From Eledone cirrhosa (Eukaryota), in contig OZ024748.1 of the NCBI GenBank assembly GCA_964016885.1, positions 59,830,001 through 59,894,000 on the forward strand: a stretch of DNA of 64,000 nucleotides, in the 5' to 3' direction. The notes beneath the pieces were generated by a model. The model was not told where the DNA came from. It was given only the letters and a program-made list of their open reading frames with translations, and ran no database searches. Positions 1,105 to 63,834 of this stretch are shown piece by piece (position 1 is the first letter of the stretch; each line of letters opens with the position of its first letter). Position numbers and translations under genes: made by a program.

Positions 1105-1436
<332 letters not shown>

Positions 1437-8262: not shown

Positions 8263-8451
8263 GGGTGGTGGATTGGCAGTATCGGTAGAGGGTCGGACGC
8301 CATGCTTTGACGCATAGAGTTACGGCCCTTTCCATTCTGAGTTCAAATCCCGCCGAGGTTAACTTTGCCTTTCATCCTTACGGGGTCGATAAAATAAAGT
8401 ACCAGTAATACACTGGGTTATTGCTGGCCTTGTGCTAAAAGTAGAAACAAT
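8263..8451 (+). mobile_element. Full-length tRNA-derived SINE (Deu/Nin-like core) with 11-bp TSD
   Basis: A box TGGCAGTATCGG, B box GAGTTCAAATCC, core GCCTTTCATCCTTACGGGGTCGATAAAATAAAGTACCAG; flanked by AAGGTATTATT (8249-8259, 8453-8463); more than 15 copies in the window. Confidence 0.9.
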
Positions 8452-10749: not shown

Positions 10750-10922
10750 AAAAAGGTCAGGACCCTGACGTCTGAGCTCCGGCCGTTCCGACAACTAGAT
10801 CCGAACTAAGCCACCAGTATTAGGACGGCGGGAATCTAGCTGAACTTATCAAGGGGTACAGTCCATATATGGACATGCAGTCAAAACAAAACAAAGAAAG
10901 TAGAAATATCAAACAATCCTAA
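10746..10922 (-). mobile_element. PLE fragment family G with U3-A8 hammerhead (10762-10857)
   Basis: Minus strand ACCCC-TTGATAA-GTTCAGCTAGATT...GAA-CGGCCGGAGCTCAGACG-TC-AGGGT; diverged homolog of 29298-29392; sits between (TA)n tracts. Confidence 0.7.
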
Positions 10923-11027: not shown

Positions 11028-11078
11028 AGATTCTACAGGACTAGAACTGTTTCATTCATTAGAAATCATCAGGAATCT
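11028..11078 (-). ncRNA. Type I hammerhead ribozyme (family H, antisense arm)
   Basis: AGATTC-CTGATGA-TTTC TAAT GAAT-GAAA-CAG TTCTAGTC CTG-TA-GAATCT on the minus strand. Confidence 0.85.
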
Positions 11079-11323: not shown

Positions 11324-11374
11324 AGATTCCTGATGAGTTCTAATGAATGAAACAGTTCTAGTCCTGTAGAATCT
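11324..11374 (+). ncRNA. Type I hammerhead ribozyme (family H)
   Basis: AGATTC-CTGATGA-GTTC TAAT GAAT-GAAA-CAG TTCTAGTC CTG-TA-GAATCT; all three stems pair, GUA cleavage triplet. Confidence 0.9.
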
Positions 11375-14928: not shown

Positions 14929-15142
14929 TTATATGTGGATTGTTGGACTGTGTATTGTATTACATTAGTGAATAACAGACGAATCTATTTGAGATATGTT
15001 ACTGTAATAATTAGCAATAAAAATATAACTAAACTCTGCTACAAATCTACTGAACTTCACACAGAACAACTTGACTATCGGCATATTATAGGTCCTAACA
15101 CTAACTCTATCATTATTACTATAAATCATTATTACTACAAAA

Positions 15143-15420
15143 GTTGACTTTGCCTTTCATCTTTACGGGGTCGATAAAATAAAGTACCAGTAATGCACTG
15201 GGTAATTGCTGGCCTTGTGCCTAAAGTAGAAACAATTATTACTACAAAAGGGCGATGAATTGGCAGTATCGGTAGAGGGTCGGACGCCATGCTTTCCAGC
15301 ATAGTTACGTCCCTTTACGGTCTGAGTTCAAATCCCGTCGAGGTTAATTTTGCCTTTCATCCTTACCGGGTCGATAAAATAAAGTACCAGTAATCAACTG
15401 GTTAATTGCTGGCCTTGTAG
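15143..15420 (+). mobile_element. Two tandem tRNA-derived SINE copies (5'-truncated + near full)
   Basis: Same sequence as the 8263 SINE; first copy flanked by ATTATTACTACAAAAG duplication. Confidence 0.85.
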
Positions 15421-15786: not shown

Positions 15787-15826
<40 letters not shown>

Positions 15827-15830
<4 letters not shown>

Positions 15831-16034
15831 AACGAGTAGGACCCCGACGGCTGAGCTCAAGCCGTTTCGACGGCTAATTCTGGACTAACATTTTAGTCCA
15901 GAATTGGCCGTCGAAACAGCTTGAGCTCAGCCGTCGGGGTCCTACTCGTTCCTATTACCCACTCTACTACCCTAAGTATTGAGTACTTTGGTGCGTTATG
16001 GTCCACCTGGTTCCTTACCACATTTCCTTCGTTA
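15827..16034 (+). mobile_element. PLE fold-back insertion family G (3' half of hammerhead only)
   Basis: 15827-15888 inverted against 15893-15954; GAAA-CAGCTTGAGCTCAGCCG-TC-GGGGT; flanked by (TA)n. Confidence 0.85.
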
Positions 16035-16093
16035 TATATATATATATATACACACACACAAACACATACATATAAATATATATATATATATAT

Positions 16094-19510: not shown

Positions 19511-20012
19511 TACACACATACACTCACACACATATCTCCCCCCCCCCCCCCACACACGCACAGGTTGCTATCTTCTACAGACACTATTACCTGTCTGTTT
19601 TAATACCTGCCTCTCTTAACTATCTTCTCACGTTCATCCCCTCCTCTTCTTCTTCCCCCTCACCATCTTCTTTTCCTAATTATCCTCCCCGCACCCCCTG
19701 TTTCAACCTCCTGCTCCTCCTCCTCTTCCTCCTCTCCGCCTCCTCCTCCTATGAACCTCTTACCTCCTCCACCTCACCCCCTCCCCCTTCCACCATGTTA
19801 CTCCTCTTCCTCCCCTCCCTCCTCCAGCTCCCCATCTTCATCTCCTCTCCCGCTCACCCCCTCCTCTTCCACCCTCTGTCTGTCCTCCCCCTCATGTGTT
19901 TAATGAGGAATCATTAGAAAGACAGTTCCAGAAACACCCCTCCCCCTTTAATCGTTACACAATCTCTCCCACACAGACACTAATCCTCTTTCGCGTGTAC
20001 CCCTCCTCCACC

Positions 20013-22895
20013 CCACACCACACCACACTACACCACACTACACCACACCACACCATACTACACCACACTACACCACACCACACCACACCACACCACACCA
20101 CACCACACCACACCACACCACACCACACCACACCACACCACACCACACTACACTACACTACACCACACTACACTACACCACACTACACCACACCACACCA
20201 CACCACACCACACCACACTACACCACACCACACCACCCCACAACACACCACACCACACCACACCACACCACACCACACCACACCACACCACACCACACCA
20301 CACCACACTACACCACACCACACCACACCACAACACACCACACCACACCACACCACACCACACCACACCACACCACACTACACCACACCACACTACACTA
20401 CACTACACCACACCACACCACACCACACCACACCACACTACACTACACCACACTACACTACACTACACTACACCACACCACACTACACCACAACACACCA
20501 CACCACACCACACCACACCACACCACACCACACCACACCACACCACACTACACCACACCACACCACACCACACCACACCATACTACACCACACCACACCA
20601 CACCACACCACACCACACCACACCACACTACACCACACCACACCACACCACACCACACCACACTACACCACACCACACCACACTACACTACACTACACTA
20701 CACCACACCACACCACACCACACCACACCACACCACTCCACACCACACTACACTACACTACACTACACCACACCACACCACACCATACTACACCACACCA
20801 CACCACACCACACCACACCACACCACACCACACTACACCACACCACACCACACCACACCATACTACACCACACCACACCACACCACACCACACCACACCA
20901 CACCACACTACACCACACCACACTACACTACACTACACCACACCACACCACACTACACCACAACACACCACACCACACCACACCACACCACACTACACCA
21001 CACTACACCACACCACACCACACCACACTACACTACACTACACTACACCACAACACACCACACCACACACACCACACCACACTACACCACACCACACCAC
21101 ACTACACCACACTACACCACACCACACTACACCATACTACACCGCACCACACCACACCACACCACACCACACCACACCACACCACACCACACCACACTAC
21201 ACCACACTACACCACACCACACCACACTACACCACACCACACTACACCATACTACACCACACCACACCACACCACACCACACTACACCACACCACACCAT
21301 ACTACACCACACTACACCAGACCACACCACACCACACTACACCACACTACACCACACCATACTACACCACACTACACCGCACCACACCACACTACACCAC
21401 ACCACACCACACTACACCACAACACACCACACCACACCACACCACACTACACCACACCACACTACACCATACTACACCACACCACACCACACCACACCAC
21501 ACCACACCACACTACACCACACCACACCATACTACACCACACTACACCACACCACACCACACCACACCACACCACACTACACCACACCACACTACACCAT
21601 ACTACACCACACCACACCACACCACACCACACCATACTACACCACACCACACCACACCACACCACACCACACCACACCACACCACACTACACCACACCAC
21701 ACTACACTACACCACACCACACTACACCACACCACACCACACTACACCACACCACACTACACCACACCACACTACACCATACTACACCACACTACACCGC
21801 ACCACACCACACCACACTACACCACACCACACCACACTACACCACACCACACTACACCATACTACACCACACTACACCGCACCACACCACACCACACTAC
21901 ACCACACCACACTACACCATACTACACCACACTACACCACACCACACCACACCACACCACACCACACTACACTACACACACCACACCACACCACACCACC
22001 ACACCACACTGCACCACACCATACTACACCACACTACACTACACCACACCACACCACACCACACTACACCACACTACACCACACCACACCACACCATACC
22101 ATACCACATCACACCACACCACACCACACCATACCACACCACACCACACCACACCATACCATACCACACCACACCACACCACACCACACCGCACCACACC
22201 ACACCACACCACACCACACCACACTGCACCACACCACACCACACTACACTACACCACACCACACCACACTTCACCACACCACACCACACCACACCACACC
22301 ACACCATACTACACCACATCATACCACACCACACCACACTACACCACTTTACACCACACCACACTACACTAGACCACACCACACCACACCACACCACACT
22401 GCACCACACCACACTACACCACACCACACTACACTACACCACACCACACCACACTACACCACACTACACCACACATACCATACCACACCACACCACACCA
22501 CACCACACCACACCACACCACACCACACCACACCATACCACACCACACCACACCACACCACACCATACCACACCACACCACACCACACCACACCACACCA
22601 TACCACACCACACCACACCACACCACACCACACCACACCACACTGCACCACACCACACCACACTACACTACACTACACTACACCACACTACACCACACTA
22701 CACCACACCATACTAGACCACACCATACCACCACACCACACCACACCACACTACACCACACTACACCACACTACACCACACTACACCACACCACACTACA
22801 CACTACACCACACCACACCACACTACACCACACTACACCACACCACACCATACCACACCACACCACACTACACCACACTACACCACACTACACCA
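20013..22895 (+). repeat. (CACCA/CACTA)n pentanucleotide satellite, about 2.9 kb
   Basis: Direct reading; source of the spurious 1029-aa HHTTP ORF. Confidence 0.97.
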
Positions 22896-23291: not shown

Positions 23292-23382
<91 letters not shown>

Positions 23383-23384
<2 letters not shown>

Positions 23385-23740
23385 GGAAAATGTATGACCC
23401 CGACGGCAGAACTCAAGCCGTTTCGACGGCTATTTCTGATCCAGAAATAGCCGTCGAAACGGCTTGAGCTCTGCCGTCGGGGGCCATACATTTTCCTATT
23501 ACCCACTATACTACCCTAAGTATTGAGTACTTTGATGTGTTATGGTCCATCTGGTTCCTTACCACAACTCCTTCGTTATATATATATATATATATAGAGG
23601 GAGAGAGAGAGAGAAAGAGATATATAGATACATAGATAGATAGATATATAGTAAAAGAGTCAGGACCTCGACGGGTGAGCTCCGGCCGTTTTGTCAGCTA
23701 AATCTGGTACACCTGGTTCCTTACCACACTTCCTTCGTTA
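23383..23740. mobile_element. PLE family G fold-back (23383-23578) plus a second rearranged fragment (23651-23740)
   Basis: 23383-23438 inverted against 23442-23499; same sequence family as 15827-16034. Confidence 0.85.
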
Positions 23741-27014: not shown

Positions 27015-27016
<2 letters not shown>

Positions 27017-28600: not shown

Positions 28601-28730
28601 TTAAAAAGGTTACAAAAATATATAAAAAACGATGCTAGATGTTCTCCATGACAACGTCTCCCATAAAATTCGTTGGTGGAAACTAAATACTTTCTATAAG
28701 TAATGTTATTAGTTCTAGTATCACTACTAA

Positions 28731-28834
28731 TAATTGTTTCTACTTTTGGCACAAGGCCAGCATTTATATCAGTGCATTACTGGTACTTTATTTTATCGAC
28801 CCCGTAAGGATGAAAGGCAAAGTTAACCTCGGCG
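28731..28834 (-). mobile_element. 5'-truncated tRNA-derived SINE
   Basis: Reverse complement of the 3' half of the 8263 SINE; TACTAATAAT flanks both sides. Confidence 0.85.
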
Positions 28835-29020: not shown

Positions 29021-29612
29021 ATAGGAAAATGTATGACTCCGACGGCAGAGCTCAATACGTTATATATATGTATATATATATAACGAGGGAAGTGTGGTAA
29101 GGAACCAGATGGACCATAACGGGTAGAAGAGTGGGTCATAGGAAAAAGTGTAACCCCGACGGCAGAGCTCAAGCCGTTATATATATATATATATATATAT
29201 ATGTAACAAAGGAGGTGTGGTAAGGACTCGGATGGACCATAACGCACCAGAGTACTCAATACTTCGGGTAGTAGAGTGGGTAATAGGAAAAAGTGTAACC
29301 CCGACGGCAGAGCTCAAGCCGTTTCGACGGCTATTTCTGGACTATATTAGAATTTTTAGCGTGGCAATAAATAGCCGAACTTTTCAAGGGGTAATTCCTT
29401 ATATGGGAAGATTGTAGTTATCAAAAGGATTGGTGAACATTTCTTGTAAACACAATTAAGTCGATCATGGTGGTAGATATGGGGTGGGGGTGGCTGAACT
29501 TGCCTGTAGAACAATGAGGGAGTGGGTGGAGCCGGTCAAGCGTTGAAAGTGAATTCTATACACCAAATTCTAAGGAGTGTGTATGAAATTATGCTTGGTA
29601 GAAAGCAGGCGA
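29021..29612 (-). mobile_element. PLE family G partial-tandem array (three fragments separated by TA tracts)
   Basis: Fragments 29021-29057, 29082-29178 and 29204-29612 share TAGGAAAA..GT..CCCCGACGGCAGAGCTCAA. Confidence 0.8.
29298..29392 (-). ncRNA. Type I hammerhead ribozyme, U3-A8 core variant (family G)
   Basis: ACCCC-TTGAAAA-GTT CGGCTATTT...AAATAGCCG TC-GAAA-CGGC TTGAGCTCT GCCG-TC-GGGGT; all stems pair, GUC triplet. Confidence 0.8.
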
Positions 29613-29700
29613 GAATATATATATATATATATATATACACGTAGATATATACATACATGCACACAGCACTTACATATATATGCATACACACACACACATA

Positions 29701-29796
<96 letters not shown>

Positions 29797-31733
29797 CATA
29801 CACACACACATATGTACGTATATCTATACATATATATATATACATATATATACCCGCACCTATACATATACAAATATCACATTTTGTATTTTCTTTATAG
29901 CTACATTTTCAATTTTCGTTTGTTCTCGATGTTTTCTCAACGATAAAACAAGCGATATTATATTTACACCTTGCTTCAAACAAATTCCATTTGATGGTGA
30001 AAAGACTTCTCACAGTAAAGTGATTATGTGTAAAGCGAAGCGGAGTGATATCAAGAGTGCAGAGGTGCAACGCCATATTATATCCTTTCTCTAAGAGTAC
30101 ATAACATTAATACAATATGTGTAGACATAAAAATAGAATATAGTATATGGTGTATTACATAGTTACATAGTCTATTTTTTGTTATACATAATGTGTTACG
30201 TTTTGTATGTTACTGATATTGTGAGATCTGTGTGTTGTATGTGTTTATATATATATATATATATATATAAATATATATATAGCTATATAAATAAATAGCT
30301 ATATAAAGCTTTAACCTAATATATCCCTTCCATATACTGTACCGATTGTGTTGTTATTTCTGTTTACCTTTTACACACACACACACACATATATATGTAT
30401 ATATATATATATAACCAAATATTAATATGGTTCATTGATTACTCAATGAATACACTTTTATAATAGATTAAAAGCACTCAACAGTAGAGTTTTCCTGGAG
30501 TTTTTAATGTTATTCAAAATATTAACAAATGAAGATATTCACATAATCAAGATATATTTCGAAGGTACTGTGTTGTTTTTTCACTACGTCCTCGGCAGAT
30601 AAAATATATGATTTGATATATGACTTACCTCTACGGTCTTGATATTTCAATTCCAGTATTGGCAGTGATTTATTTAATCAAATCTCAACATTTATATACC
30701 ACAAATAATAATATGATAAACATAAAGAAGAAAAGGACATGGAGCGCATTAGAGATATAAGAGAGGGTGTAAATAGGAGGAAGGCAAGAAAAAGAAAGAA
30801 AGAAAGAAAGAAAGGAAGAAAGAAAGAAAGAAAGAAAAAAGGAAAAATAAGAAAAATAAAGAAATATATACATAAATATTTAAATGAATAAAAGAAGAAG
30901 AAAGGAGTAATAACGACAAAAGAGAGGGAACAAAATATATGTTAGGATATATAGAAAAACCGTTGTTTTCAAATATTAGGTGAATTGAGGCAACCAATCA
31001 ATTACCATAAAACCATTGAATATCTCTTGTATTTGATTATGGTTAAGCTAATTATACTTATATAGTATATCAAAATTAGTCAATACACATTACTTTTTAT
31101 AGCCGTCACATAATTCCTTTAATTAAAAATTTATATAATTTAATTTAACTCATTATAGATTATAAGTTTAAGTAATATATTATTTAAGTATTTTGTTACA
31201 ACTTTTAAAAAATGTTATCTTTAAAACAAATTAAAACAATTATTCAACATGCATTTAAAATATATATTAAAATACATGCATATCTCACCATCAAGATATA
31301 TAATATATTAAGATCATTTTTTAGCCGAATTATTTATTTAAATAGGATATTTACTTTATAAAATCATTTCCATTCTTTAATTATCATATAATTACACGAT
31401 TAAATTGCTGTTATATTTAATCTCAAAAGTTTTATTCCATTAATTTATATTTACTTCAGTAATTATATATTATTATAGTTTCCTTTTAAAGATATTCTTA
31501 TATTATTAAACTACATAATTCATGTCAAATATAATTTAGTAAGCTATTCAAACAGAATAAAAATATTTACGAAGAATGTAAACAAAAGGAAGATAACTCA
31601 TTCACCATATGTGAACATTTAACTACTCTGAAATCTAGTGATAATTCTAAACCATAAGTCAACAATTGTCAAGTTAAATATTGAACAGAGTGTAATATCT
31701 TCATTTGTTAATATTTTGAATAATATATATATA

Positions 31734-41400: not shown

Positions 41401-41524
41401 ATACATACATACATATATATATACATACATACACACATATATATATATACATACCACGCCCCAACACATATATATATATATATACATATATACATATATA
41501 TATTTAAGTATATATATATATATA

Positions 41525-42115
<591 letters not shown>

Positions 42116-42840: not shown

Positions 42841-43147
42841 CAATTCTCACATATTTATTCATTGCTAGTCCAACACTCACTGATCAGTCTAATGACAATC
42901 ATGAGAGAAACTATGAAAACTTACCATAATGTAACCAGTTCTTTAACTAAACGATTCTGATCTACTTCTATACGAATTAATGATTTTTTCATTTATTTTC
43001 GCTTTTTTTGCTTCTTTCATTTTCACCATACAATCGTGAGGAACAATCTCTGATTTCCGAATTTCAATCGCAAAGAACTTGTTTGATTTGTAATAATGGC
43101 TAGCAACAACGACAGCAACAACAGCGACAAAAGCAAGAACAAGAACA

Positions 43148-44195
43148 TAATTGTTTCTACTTTTTGGCACAAGGCCAGCAATTACCCCAGTGCATTACTG
43201 GTACTTTATTTTATCGACCCCGTAAGGATGAAAGGCAAAGTTAACCTCGGCGGGATTTGAACTCAGACCATAAAGGGCGGTAACTCTTTGCTGCAAAGCA
43301 CAGCGTCTGACCCTCTACCGATACTGCCAATCCACATGGCTAGCAATAACCACAGCAGCAACATCAACAACGACAACAACAATAGTGACAAGAACAAGAA
43401 CAAGAACAACAATAACATCATAAAATTACAATAATAATAATGTTTCTACTTTTGGCACAAGTCCAGCAATTACCCAGTGTATTACTGGTACTTTTTTTAT
43501 TGACCCCGTGAGGATGAAAAGCAAAGTTAACCTCGACGGGATTTGAACTCAGAACGTAAAGGGACGTAACTATGCTAGAAAGCGTGGCGTCCAGCCTTCT
43601 ACCGATACTGCCAATTCAGCGTCCTTAAGGATGAAGGGCAGGATTTGAACTCAGAATGCCAAGGGCCATAACTCTATACTGCAAAGGATGGCGTCCGACC
43701 CTCTACTGATAACAACAGCAGCAACATCAACAACGACAAGAACAAGAACAACAATAACAACATAAAATAACAATAATAATAATGTGTCTACTTTTGGCAC
43801 AAGGCCAGCAATTAACCCAGTACATTACTGCTACTTTATTTTAATCGACCCCGTAAGGATGAAAGGCAAAGTTAACCTCGGCGGGATTTGAACTCAGAAC
43901 GTAAAGAGGCGTAACCCTATGCCGTGAAGCATGGTGCCTAAGTTCTACCGTTACTGCCAATCCACCACCCTAAACTCATAATAATTGTTTCTACTTTAGG
44001 CACAAGGGGTTGTTTCTACTTTTGACACAAGACCAGCAATTACCCCAGTGCATTACTGGTACTTTATTTTATCGACCCGTAAGGATGAAAGGCAAAGTTA
44101 ACCTAGGTGGATTAGATCCCTGAACGTAAAGGGCCATAACTCTATGCTGCAAAAAAGGGTGTCTGGCGCTCTACCGATACTGTCAAAGCACCGTC
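43148..44195 (-). mobile_element. Cluster of about 5 tandem tRNA-derived SINE copies with (AAC)-rich linkers
   Basis: Copies at about 43148-43335, 43437-43625, 43626-43710 (partial), 43778-43970 and 43981-44195. Confidence 0.9.
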
Positions 44196-48268: not shown

Positions 48269-48442
48269 TATTGAAACAGTGGAAATATCTCAGACAGTTT
48301 GAATATATATTTGTCTAGTGTACGTAAGATGTTAGTAGGAACGTTTATTTCTTGAGTTTGTGAGTTAGGAGGAAAGAAGAGAGGAAAAAACAGTATTCGT
48401 GAAAGTATATATATATACATATACATATATATATATATATAT

Positions 48443-48813
48443 AGTAATGATAATAAATTTAAAGTCTAAAATCCAAAGAGGGCTCGATAAGGATAAATAT
48501 ATATCAAATATATTTATAACCGTAGAGCAAATATTTATTAAAATAACAGATTAAAGTTTAAGCAATGAATCGCCGCTTTCACCCTTAACGGGATTTTCTG
48601 AAACCAAAAAAATCAATCTGTGAACGCAGAAGTAAATATTTCAAAAAAACGTTGCAACCGAAGGAAGACAGGAAGACGATACTTTGGTTCGTGGAAACGT
48701 TTCCTGGCAAAGAACGGATAAAGACAAAGATAATACGTCATAATTTGGAGCGATCAAAACAATTACACGCAAAGGCAAAACCAGCAATTCTTTGCTTAAA
48801 CTTTAATCTGTTA

Positions 48814-54974: not shown

Positions 54975-55460
54975 AACAAGAAAAACGAATACAACAAGAA
55001 CAACAAGAAAAACGAAGACAACAACAACAATAAAAACACGAGAAATAAGTATGTAAATATAAGTATAAAAAAACCAAGATGAAAATATTTTTAACTAACA
55101 ATAAGACTAAAACAACAACAACAATAATACAATAAAAGATCACAACTACAACAACAATAACAACGAAAACAAGACGAGCACAAAGACAGCAATAGCAACT
55201 ACAAAAACTAATAGAAACAACAACCGTAACAAAACAAAAACATCAACAACGTGACTAACGATAAATATTAATACAATAACAACAACAACAGTAATTACAA
55301 CAACAGTAAGAACACATCAAAGGATAACAATAACAACTGTAACAACAAGATAACGTAAAAATGTCAATAACAAAAAAAAACAGAATACAAAAACAACAGC
55401 AACAGCAACAACTAAACGACGCCAACAACAACTACAATATTGGAACAAAGATAAAATATA

Positions 55461-55629
55461 ATAATTGTTTCTACTTTAGGCACAAGGCCAGCAATCACCC
55501 AGTGTATTACTGGTACTTTATTTTATCGACCCCGTAAGGATGAAAGGCAAAGTTAACCTTGGCGGGATTTGAACTCAGAAAGGCAAGGGCCGTAACTCTA
55601 TACGTCAAAGCATGGCGTCCGACACTCTA
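55461..55629 (-). mobile_element. tRNA-derived SINE (slightly 5'-truncated)
   Basis: Reverse complement of the 8263 SINE; AATATAATAAT flanks. Confidence 0.9.
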
Positions 55630-60888: not shown

Positions 60889-60901
60889 GTATATATGTAT
60901 A

Positions 60902-60963
60902 GAGTCCAGAATTAGCCGTCGAAACGGCTTGAGCTCAGCCGTCGGGGTACTACTCATTCCTAT
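60902..60963 (+). mobile_element. PLE family G mini-fragment (3' half of hammerhead)
   Basis: AGTCCAGAATTAGCCGTC-GAAA-CGGCTTGAGCTCAGCCG-TC-GGGGT. Confidence 0.85.
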
Positions 60964-63009: not shown

Positions 63010-63419
<410 letters not shown>

Positions 63420-63834
63420 ATGTGCATATACTATCAAAATCAGTAGTAATAGGAGTTTATATCGAGATGTCGAGTTGCTCCAACTGTATCCTCTATCCTC
63501 TCTACGGTTATTTGTTTTATTTGCATCGATGGGTTGATCTCAGATAATACATAAAACAAGGTAAATTATACTTGTGCCGTGTGCAGTAGCCTGCTGTAGG
63601 TATTAAAGTTAGCTTCGCTCGGAGCTCAGACAAAATATACAGACGATAAAGAAAATGTCGCATAAAAAATACCGATAACGAATGAAAACAATATACTGGA
63701 GAATATAACTATATATTGTTACAGTTGACAGCAGAGGATTTCTAGGTGAAGATATTGTGTATGCTCTTGTTCTGTGTGTATGTATGTATGTTTGTTTGTG
63801 TGTATGTATGTATGTTTGTTTGTGTGTATGTATG

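What the first reader, a model, noticed from the sequence alone, without database searches (positions are those of the whole stretch)
29298..29392. Family G hammerhead uses a U3-A8 covariant core (TTGANAA)
Seen: perfect stems I (ACCCC/GGGGT) and III (CGGC/GCCG), a long stem II, GAAA and a GUC site, but the core reads TTGAAAA here and TTGATAA in the diverged copy at 10846-10852; both C3 and G8 are changed together while free position 7 varies. Established: C3-G8 form a Watson-Crick tertiary pair in the active hammerhead, and U3-A8 is a rare functional covariant. Inference: an active variant ribozyme that standard CUGANGA searches miss.
Basis: partly seen in the sequence, partly recalled or inferred. 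Interest (0 to 1): 0.75.

Follow-up and report, generated by a model that had tools for sequence, protein, structure and literature searches.

The report
Drifting-core hammerhead in Penelope retrotransposon
This is a hammerhead-shaped RNA motif at the end of a very abundant Penelope-type jumping gene; its U-A core pair is an already published variant, and because the family also multiplied widely with that pair mismatched, the predicted self-cutting is likely weak and helpful rather than essential.

Summary
The motif is real, on the minus strand (29392 to 29298), and folds as a type I hammerhead with a U3-A8 core. It is the end repeat (pLTR) of a Hydra-clade Penelope-like retrotransposon (50,451 exact matches to its 3' half). 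U3-A8 is the family norm, not decay: only 4 of 5,526 copies read C3-G8. A sister family in the same genome has C3-G8 (86 of 100 listed). Inside the family, 3 and 8 do not covary: 1,214 of 5,526 copies are C3-A8, a small lineage is U3-G8, and the youngest subfamilies likely returned to U3-A8. Ten other core bases and stem I are invariant across 11 subfamily consensuses and stem II shows compensatory changes, so the fold is under selection. U3-A8 is already published for Schistosoma Penelope-like elements and other natural hammerheads. The copy at 10846 is broken (GGAA). Cutting is untested; no RNA run was listed. Truncation points cluster 41 bases before the cut site, likely a transcription start. 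The scan reported this family and this reading before on other DNA of this genome.

The parts
29298..29392 (-). Type I hammerhead motif, subfamily C1 copy, core and stems intact
29381..29387 (-). Core strand U3-U4-G5-A6-A7-A8-A9 (U3 = 29387, A8 = 29382)
   Evidence: family counts
29326..29380 (-). Long stem II: G10.1-C11.1, 2x1 internal loop, 9-bp helix, variable distal hairpin
   Evidence: three pairs change on both sides between subfamilies A and C
29339..29345 (-). Initiator-like word in the stem II 3' arm; its A (29343) lies 41 bases before the cut site and is the commonest 5' truncation point in the family; likely transcription start (inferred; initiator consensus recalled)
   Evidence: 10 of 90 at -41, 49 of 90 at -45..-35; conserved letters
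29304..29325 (-). GAAA, stem III and 9-base loop with a self-complementary hexamer (29315-29310); the 19-base arm is nearly palindromic and can pair between two copies
   Evidence: predicted duplex about 14-16 kcal/mol more stable than two hairpins
29302..29303 (-). Predicted cleavage site after GUC
   Evidence: hammerhead numbering applied to the sequence; cutting untested
29393..29614 (-). 5'-truncated piece of the element's 3' UTR, no ORF in the window
   Evidence: BLASTN to ORF-bearing loci L061, L079; tblastn of the ORF against the window empty
29204..29297 (-). Tail after the hammerhead (long end type), followed by (TA)n at 29178-29202; (TA)-rich array on the other side at 29615-29852
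29021..29178 (-). Two further short fragments of the same end repeat, each lacking the 5' half of the hammerhead
10762..10857 (-). Older subfamily A copy, core TTGATAA (10852-10846) but broken: GGAA at 10789-10786, mismatches in stems III and I
15826..16050 (.). Head-to-head remnant of the same family, 3' half of the hammerhead only
23382..23596 (.). Head-to-head remnant of the same family, 3' half of the hammerhead only
60899..60963 (+). Short remnant of the same family, 3' half of the hammerhead only

Best explanation
The motif is a type I hammerhead fold with a U3-A8 core in the end repeat of a Hydra-clade Penelope-like retrotransposon, and it likely cuts the element's RNA after GUC slowly, perhaps only with help from the element's protein or a second copy, as a useful but non-essential step. 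Shown: position in the pLTR of ORF-bearing elements, family-wide U3-A8, constraint on core and stems, amplified lineages with C3-A8 and U3-G8. Inferred: transcription starts inside the stem II arm, 41 bases before the cut site, so a transcript would carry a half motif at its 5' end and the whole motif at its 3' end; reverse transcription starts at two tail sites about 20 and 100 bases after the cut site; the cut would trim or define the unit-length RNA. U3-A8 is likely kept because G8 is predicted to mispair with loop III in this sequence.
For: Element: full-length copies read hammerhead - ORF of 786-819 open codons - about 1.1 kb UTR - hammerhead - tail - (TA)n, two hammerheads about 3.55 kb apart, often with an inverted 5' copy. 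Hydra-clade protein motifs match PMC8557442 section 11. Copy numbers: 50,451, 5,526, controls 0. Constraint across 11 subfamily consensuses: 0 of 10 other core bases, 0 of 10 stem I and 1 of 8 stem III columns vary (the one change gives G-U), against 21 of 32 distal stem II and 105 of 130 upstream UTR columns; three stem II pairs change on both sides. Non-essential: 1,214 of 5,526 copies C3-A8 (24% by depth in DNA contigs of run X1); C3-A8 subfamilies D and E lie below the youngest U3-A8 subfamilies F and G in the UTR tree (support 100) and in the ORF tree. 79 of 90 tail-anchored copies run on past the cut site. In vitro, a Poseidon element's hammerhead needs the protein to cut and its core mutants do not block insertion (PMC11167929). 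Folding: U3-A8 gives the highest predicted hammerhead probability of the four tested 3/8 states in 11 of 11 consensuses and the window copy; C3-G8 gives at most 0.076.
Against: No cleavage or expression data. U3-A8 gave low activity in a pairwise scan of another hammerhead (PMC9901934). Predicted hammerhead probability is only 0.27-0.35 for U3-A8 consensuses and 0.00-0.06 for the mismatched ones (flanks 20/15). No clear pile-up of breakpoints at the cut site (5 of 90 at 0..+1, confounded by microhomology). Copies were collected with anchors on stems I and III, which favours their apparent invariance; the 233 copies came from targeted searches, not a random draw. The ORF tree is midpoint-rooted and one U3-A8 copy (L061) nests among C3-A8 copies, so the order C to D rests on the UTR tree and on divergence from consensus. 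The conserved region may also serve as promoter or protein-binding site.
Confidence: 0.6

Rival explanations
1. Fully active variant ribozyme: U3-A8 replaces C3-G8 without loss and efficient cutting is needed for mobility.
For: Core and stems under constraint; U3-A8 likely restored after the C3-A8 phase, and the youngest subfamily also gains a pair next to G10.1-C11.1 and the highest predicted fold probability, 0.35; natural U3-A8 described with in vitro activity cited (PMC3088659).
Against: 22% of complete copies come from C3-A8 lineages that amplified although predicted to misfold; most copies span the cut site; hammerhead mutants did not block insertion in vitro for Poseidon.
Confidence: 0.15
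2. The C3-A8 core (CUGAGAA) is itself active, through a C-A wobble or by a register shift in which C3 pairs with G7 and the spare A takes the place of the extra base seen after A9 in other Hydra hammerheads; the ribozyme then never lapsed.
For: 98 of the first 100 listed C3-A8 copies have G7; all other core bases stayed invariant through subfamilies D and E; many published Hydra hammerheads carry an extra base after A9 (File S2 of PMC8557442).
Against: C3 and G7 arise on one branch, a single event; D and E consensuses are predicted to prefer another fold; single changes in this region gave low activity in PMC9901934.
Confidence: 0.12
3. The motif no longer cuts and is kept as a promoter or as a structure that the reverse transcriptase recognises.
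For: Likely transcription start inside stem II, with core and stem III bases lying just downstream of it; tolerance of mismatched 3-8 states; no reads ended at the cut site for Poseidon.
Against: U4, G5, A6 and A9 lie upstream of the likely start yet are invariant while position 7 is free, the pattern of catalysis; compensatory stem II changes; likely return to U3-A8.
Confidence: 0.13

Closest known systems
U3-A8 minimal hammerheads of Schistosoma mansoni Cercyon Penelope-like elements (Cervera and De la Pena 2014, PMC4209133; main text parts 1-2 of 4 read)
   Same: Type I hammerhead in the pLTR of a Penelope-like element, U3-A8 core, thousands of mostly single copies, inverted pairs, palindromic helix III region.
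   Different: Those are minimal motifs with no real helix III and a 7-8 bp helix II, about 1,300 hits. Here helix III has 4 pairs plus a 9-base loop, helix II spans 55 bases, there is no extra base after A9, the host is a Hydra-clade element, and lineages with C3-A8 and U3-G8 amplified.
Hydra clade of Penelope-like elements (Craig et al. 2021, PMC8557442; passages, section 11, supplement tables S1/S2 and protein passages read)
   Same: C-terminal GIY-YIG endonuclease, DKT, CxCX5C linker, no CCHH, CxxC and CxH motifs, (TA)n targets, hammerhead near the 3' end.
   Different: All Hydra-clade hammerheads listed in File S2 have ctgaNga cores and loops III of 1-3 bases; this family has U3-A8 and a longer unit (about 3.55 kb against generally under 3 kb). 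RWK reads RWR.
Natural U3-A8 hammerheads (Perreault et al. 2011, PMC3088659; passages read)
   Same: Same covariant 3-8 pair, stated there to occur in several natural examples and to be active in vitro by an earlier study.
   Different: Rare scattered examples there; here a whole high-copy family with a traceable history of the pair.
Poseidon element of Anolis, PAc (Frangieh et al. 2024, PMC11167929; parts 1-2 of 4 read)
   Same: pLTR hammerhead, two reverse-transcription start sites that define a tail, AT-rich targets, uncut RNA as the main template.
   Different: Different clade, C3-G8 core; evidence there is biochemical, here only genomic.

Membership tests
Type I hammerhead ribozyme | Three helices around the core, ends joined in stem I | tested here: met
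Type I hammerhead ribozyme | U4 G5 A6 A9, G12 A13 A14, A15.1-U16.1, H17, G10.1-C11.1 | tested here: met
   invariant in 11 of 11 subfamily consensuses; broken in the copy at 10846
Type I hammerhead ribozyme | Watson-Crick pair between positions 3 and 8 | tested here: met
   U3-A8 in this copy and in 73 of the first 100 listed copies (counted by hand); not met in subfamilies B, D, E
Type I hammerhead ribozyme | Canonical CUGANGA sequence | tested here: not met
   4 of 5,526 copies
Type I hammerhead ribozyme | Match to an Rfam hammerhead model | tested here: not met
   no hammerhead family at E up to 10; the canonical neighbour family is missed too
Type I hammerhead ribozyme | Tertiary contact between stems I and II | not tested
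   no recognisable contact motif was looked for systematically
Type I hammerhead ribozyme | Self-cleavage after H17 | not testable with these tools
   no RNA holder listed; breakpoint test inconclusive
Hydra-clade Penelope-like element | Single ORF, RT followed by C-terminal GIY-YIG endonuclease, pLTRs, tandem and inverted copies | tested here: met
   (in other copies; the window copy has no ORF); Pfam gave no RT hit, domains read from motifs by comparison
Hydra-clade Penelope-like element | DKT, CxCX5C linker, CxxC and CxH, no CCHH | tested here: met
   read by eye in the ORF against section 11
Hydra-clade Penelope-like element | RWK motif | tested here: inconclusive
   reads RWR at the matching place
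Hydra-clade Penelope-like element | Insertion into (TA)n | tested here: met
Hydra-clade Penelope-like element | Placement in an RT tree with published Hydra families | not tested
   published proteins were compared by eye only
Non-LTR retrozyme | Non-coding tandem repeats with a hammerhead in each unit | tested here: not met
   copies are dispersed ends of a coding element; definition from 10.64898/2026.07.22.740005, part 1 of 5

The most novel reading that the evidence does not exclude
One retrotransposon lineage walked its hammerhead through U3-A8, U3-G8 and C3-A8 and back without losing function: the C3-A8 core CUGAGAA, carried by over 1,200 copies, is a naturally active core (C-A wobble or C3-G7 register shift), and the ribozyme works split, with a transcript start inside its own stem II marking a repeated region that ends at the cut site, much like the R region of an LTR element.
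Probability: 0.12. Interest if true: 0.7.

Novelty: new variant of a known kind. Interest (0 to 1): 0.38.

Why it matters
Whether the hammerhead of Penelope-like elements matters for mobility is open (PMC8557442 discussion; PMC11167929). This family offers a natural series in one sequence background - U3-A8, U3-G8, C3-A8 and a sister family with C3-G8 - with copy numbers and relative ages, so rates measured in vitro can be set against amplification in the genome. It also shows that CUGANGA descriptors miss thousands of motifs in a clade said to carry canonical ones. The U3-A8 pair itself is not new.

Tried and rejected
Rfam over the whole window gave only microsatellite-driven miRNA hits among the 150 of 289 rows shown; targeted scans gave no hammerhead. 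Pfam found no RT or endonuclease family in 3 ORF pieces. Naiad host rejected: the endonuclease is C-terminal. Nematis host rejected: linker is CxCX5C, not CX2-5CxxC. Retrozyme rejected. 'Decay from CTGANGA' rejected (the oldest subfamily is U3-A8 in 89 of 100 listed). The best-hit DNA search is biased towards the query and was not used for core counts. Expression: no RNA holder listed. Run X5 of a second organism gave three contigs at depth 2-3, nearly identical to the youngest subfamily; relative or carry-over cannot be told, not used. Cut-site breakpoints: 5 of 90 at 0..+1, inconclusive. One loose TTGAAAA descriptor hit in metagenome locus L412 was judged chance (weak stems). The constrained fold of the 10846 copy failed (its value of 1.000 is an artefact) and the probabilities of that call, which forced an isolated pair, were replaced. 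Three clusters of 1-2 copies (5 of 233) were left out of the consensus analysis. Papers not held: Przybilski and Hammann 2007, Nelson and Uhlenbeck 2008, Martick and Scott 2006, Lunse et al. 2017; their rates for 3-8 mismatches were not seen, and Lunse et al. may list further core variants in Penelope hammerheads. PMC11014351, PMC3884650, PMC6765202, PMC6155905 and PMC2377424 (passages only) added only background. Figures and supplements of PMC4209133 were not seen and may show similar motifs.

Full report
Observation. It folds by minimum energy into the hammerhead junction, although its stability is unremarkable (17 of 200 shuffles as stable). A descriptor open to any Watson-Crick 3-8 pair finds 2 sites in the window against a mean of 0.1 in 30 shuffles. 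The second copy has TTGATAA at 10852-10846 but also GGAA and stem mismatches, so it is a broken copy.

What carries it. The window lies in a 3.0 Gb genome; the host taxon was not determined. The 3' half of the motif has 50,451 exact matches (control 0). [quoted passage not shown] Near-intact elements read hammerhead, ORF of 786-819 open codons, about 1.1 kb UTR, hammerhead, tail, (TA)n, with the two hammerheads about 3.55 kb apart in the sense direction. DKT, CxCX5C, CxxC, CxH, the lack of CCHH and (TA)n targets fit the Hydra clade of Penelope-like elements (PMC8557442 section 11; compared by eye, no tree with published families). The window copy is a 5'-truncated end piece without ORF.

Is U3-A8 the family state? 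With the core left free between flanking anchors there are 5,526 matches. The first 100 listed, counted by hand: 73 U3-A8, 23 C3-A8, 3 U3-G8, 1 G3-A8, 0 C3-G8; position 7 is G 71, T 13, A 12, C 4; U4, A6 and A9 hold in 100 and G5 in 98. Genome-wide, 38 have G8, of which 4 are C3-G8, and 1,214 are C3-A8; about 8 C3-G8 would be expected if 3 and 8 were independent. Contigs of run X1, which may be the sample of the assembly, give C at position 3 in 24% of depth and no change at 8 above 3%. The older subfamily of the 10846 copy is U3-A8 in 89 of 100 listed (189 matches); a small subfamily is U3-G8 in 13 of 18. So U3-A8 is not decay, but 3 and 8 do not covary within the family.

Between families the pair does differ. 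A second hammerhead family in the window (core at 11330, plus strand) has 18,572 matches, C3-G8 in 86 and U3-A8 in 0 of the first 100 listed; two of its loci continue into an ORF about 51% identical to this family's. Of 8 metagenome relatives, 5 carry a C3-G8 hammerhead after the ORF, in two distinct families. All Hydra-clade motifs in File S2 of PMC8557442 have ctgaNga. U3-A8 is therefore likely a derived state of this lineage.

History and constraint. 233 complete copies from targeted searches fell into 14 clusters; 11 clusters (228 copies) were used. Their tree is ladder-like: A (U3-A8), B (U3-G8), C (U3-A8, the window copy), D and E (C3-A8), F and G (U3-A8), with support 100 for D(E(F,G)). 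Divergence from consensus is about 8% in A and 2% in G. A tree of 50 ORF pieces from 90 loci also puts C3-A8 copies below F and G; it is midpoint-rooted and one U3-A8 copy nests among D. Across the 11 consensuses 0 of 10 other core bases, 0 of 10 stem I and 1 of 8 stem III columns vary, against 21 of 32 in distal stem II and 105 of 130 in the upstream UTR; three stem II pairs change on both sides between A and C, with mismatched intermediates in B. The anchors used to collect copies favour invariance of stems I and III, but not of U4, G5, A6 and A9.

Folding. The predicted share of the hammerhead fold is 0.27-0.35 for U3-A8 consensuses and 0.00-0.06 for B, D and E. Among four 3/8 states tested in memory, U3-A8 is highest in all 11 and in the window copy; C3-G8 gives at most 0.076; in the natural G8 subfamily B the core pairs with loop III. 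Loop III holds an invariant self-complementary hexamer, and the 19-base arm is predicted to pair between two copies 14-16 kcal/mol more stably than two hairpins, like the palindromic helix III of dimer-forming Penelope hammerheads (PMC4209133). These are model predictions.

Ends of copies. Copies end about 20 or about 100 bases after the cut site, matching the two reverse-transcription starts that define the tail in Poseidon (PMC11167929). In the first 90 of 34,216 tail-anchored copies, 5' breakpoints fall at -45..-35 in 49, with the mode (10) at -41, none at -61..-95, 8 beyond the whole motif and 5 at 0..+1 (alignment ends, blurred by microhomology). Position -41 is the A of a conserved T(T/C)AGT word that resembles an initiator (consensus recalled; internal promoter with an initiator reported for Penelope, PMC2377424 passages). 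A transcription start there is my preferred reading, which an earlier scan note suggested in general form; a stall of the reverse transcriptase in stem II on a circular or read-through template fits equally. Most templates were uncut or rejoined at the site, as 79 of 90 copies span it.

Mechanism. Shown: location, family state, constraint, mismatched lineages. Inferred: slow cutting after GUC, aided by protein or a second copy, that trims the unit-length RNA but is not required. This agrees with Poseidon, where the hammerhead cuts only with protein and core mutants do not block insertion in vitro. Against activity: in a pairwise scan of another hammerhead only G3-C8 rescued (PMC9901934 passages). 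Kinetic papers on 3-8 exchanges were not held.

Prior art. U3-A8 is described in nature (PMC3088659 passages) and in Schistosoma Penelope-like elements, about 1,300 hits (PMC4209133). I found no paper on a U3-A8 Hydra-clade family or on amplified C3-A8 lineages in searches; one likely relevant paper (Lunse et al. 2017) was not held. The scan itself reported this family with the same drifting-core reading on other DNA of this genome; I had noted that reading before seeing it.

Verdict. Real motif, known core variant, in a new architecture and clade; the most useful part is the natural series of 3-8 states. New variant of a known kind, interest 0.38.

Noticed in passing
window 11325-11373 (+), inverted copy near 11030-11075 (-); further copies near 27015 and 49080 (+): Sister Hydra-type family with a canonical CTGATGA hammerhead, GUA site and a small palindrome in loop III; 18,572 exact matches genome-wide.
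   Followed up: yes
window about 29250-29270 (-); L409-L411 after the hammerhead; sister family tail: A GTATTGAG-containing word downstream of the hammerhead is shared by this family, the sister family and metagenome relatives at 36% protein identity; possibly a protein-binding or priming signal.
   Followed up: no
L256 and other subfamily G loci: Youngest subfamily: copies 98-99% identical over the ORF, several with intact frames; probably recently active.
   Followed up: partly
L256:2620-2900, run X5: A run labelled as a second organism holds three low-depth contigs nearly identical to the youngest subfamily; close relative, transfer or carry-over not resolved.
   Followed up: partly
window 20008-22895: 2.9 kb (CCACA)n array, 579 copies of a 5-base unit.
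   Followed up: no
window 1155-1247, 8263-8451, 15140-15418, 28730-28834, 43147-44193, 55460-55629: Another dispersed repeat with many copies in the window, seen as BLAST hits of flanks of L066 and L079.
   Followed up: no
window 41468-41681, 48406-48602, 63011-63421: A further dispersed repeat family hit by flanks of L061 and L064.
   Followed up: no
L071, L016, L264, L276, L281: More distant Hydra-like ORF remnants (33-45% identity) elsewhere in the genome; their hammerheads were not examined.
   Followed up: no
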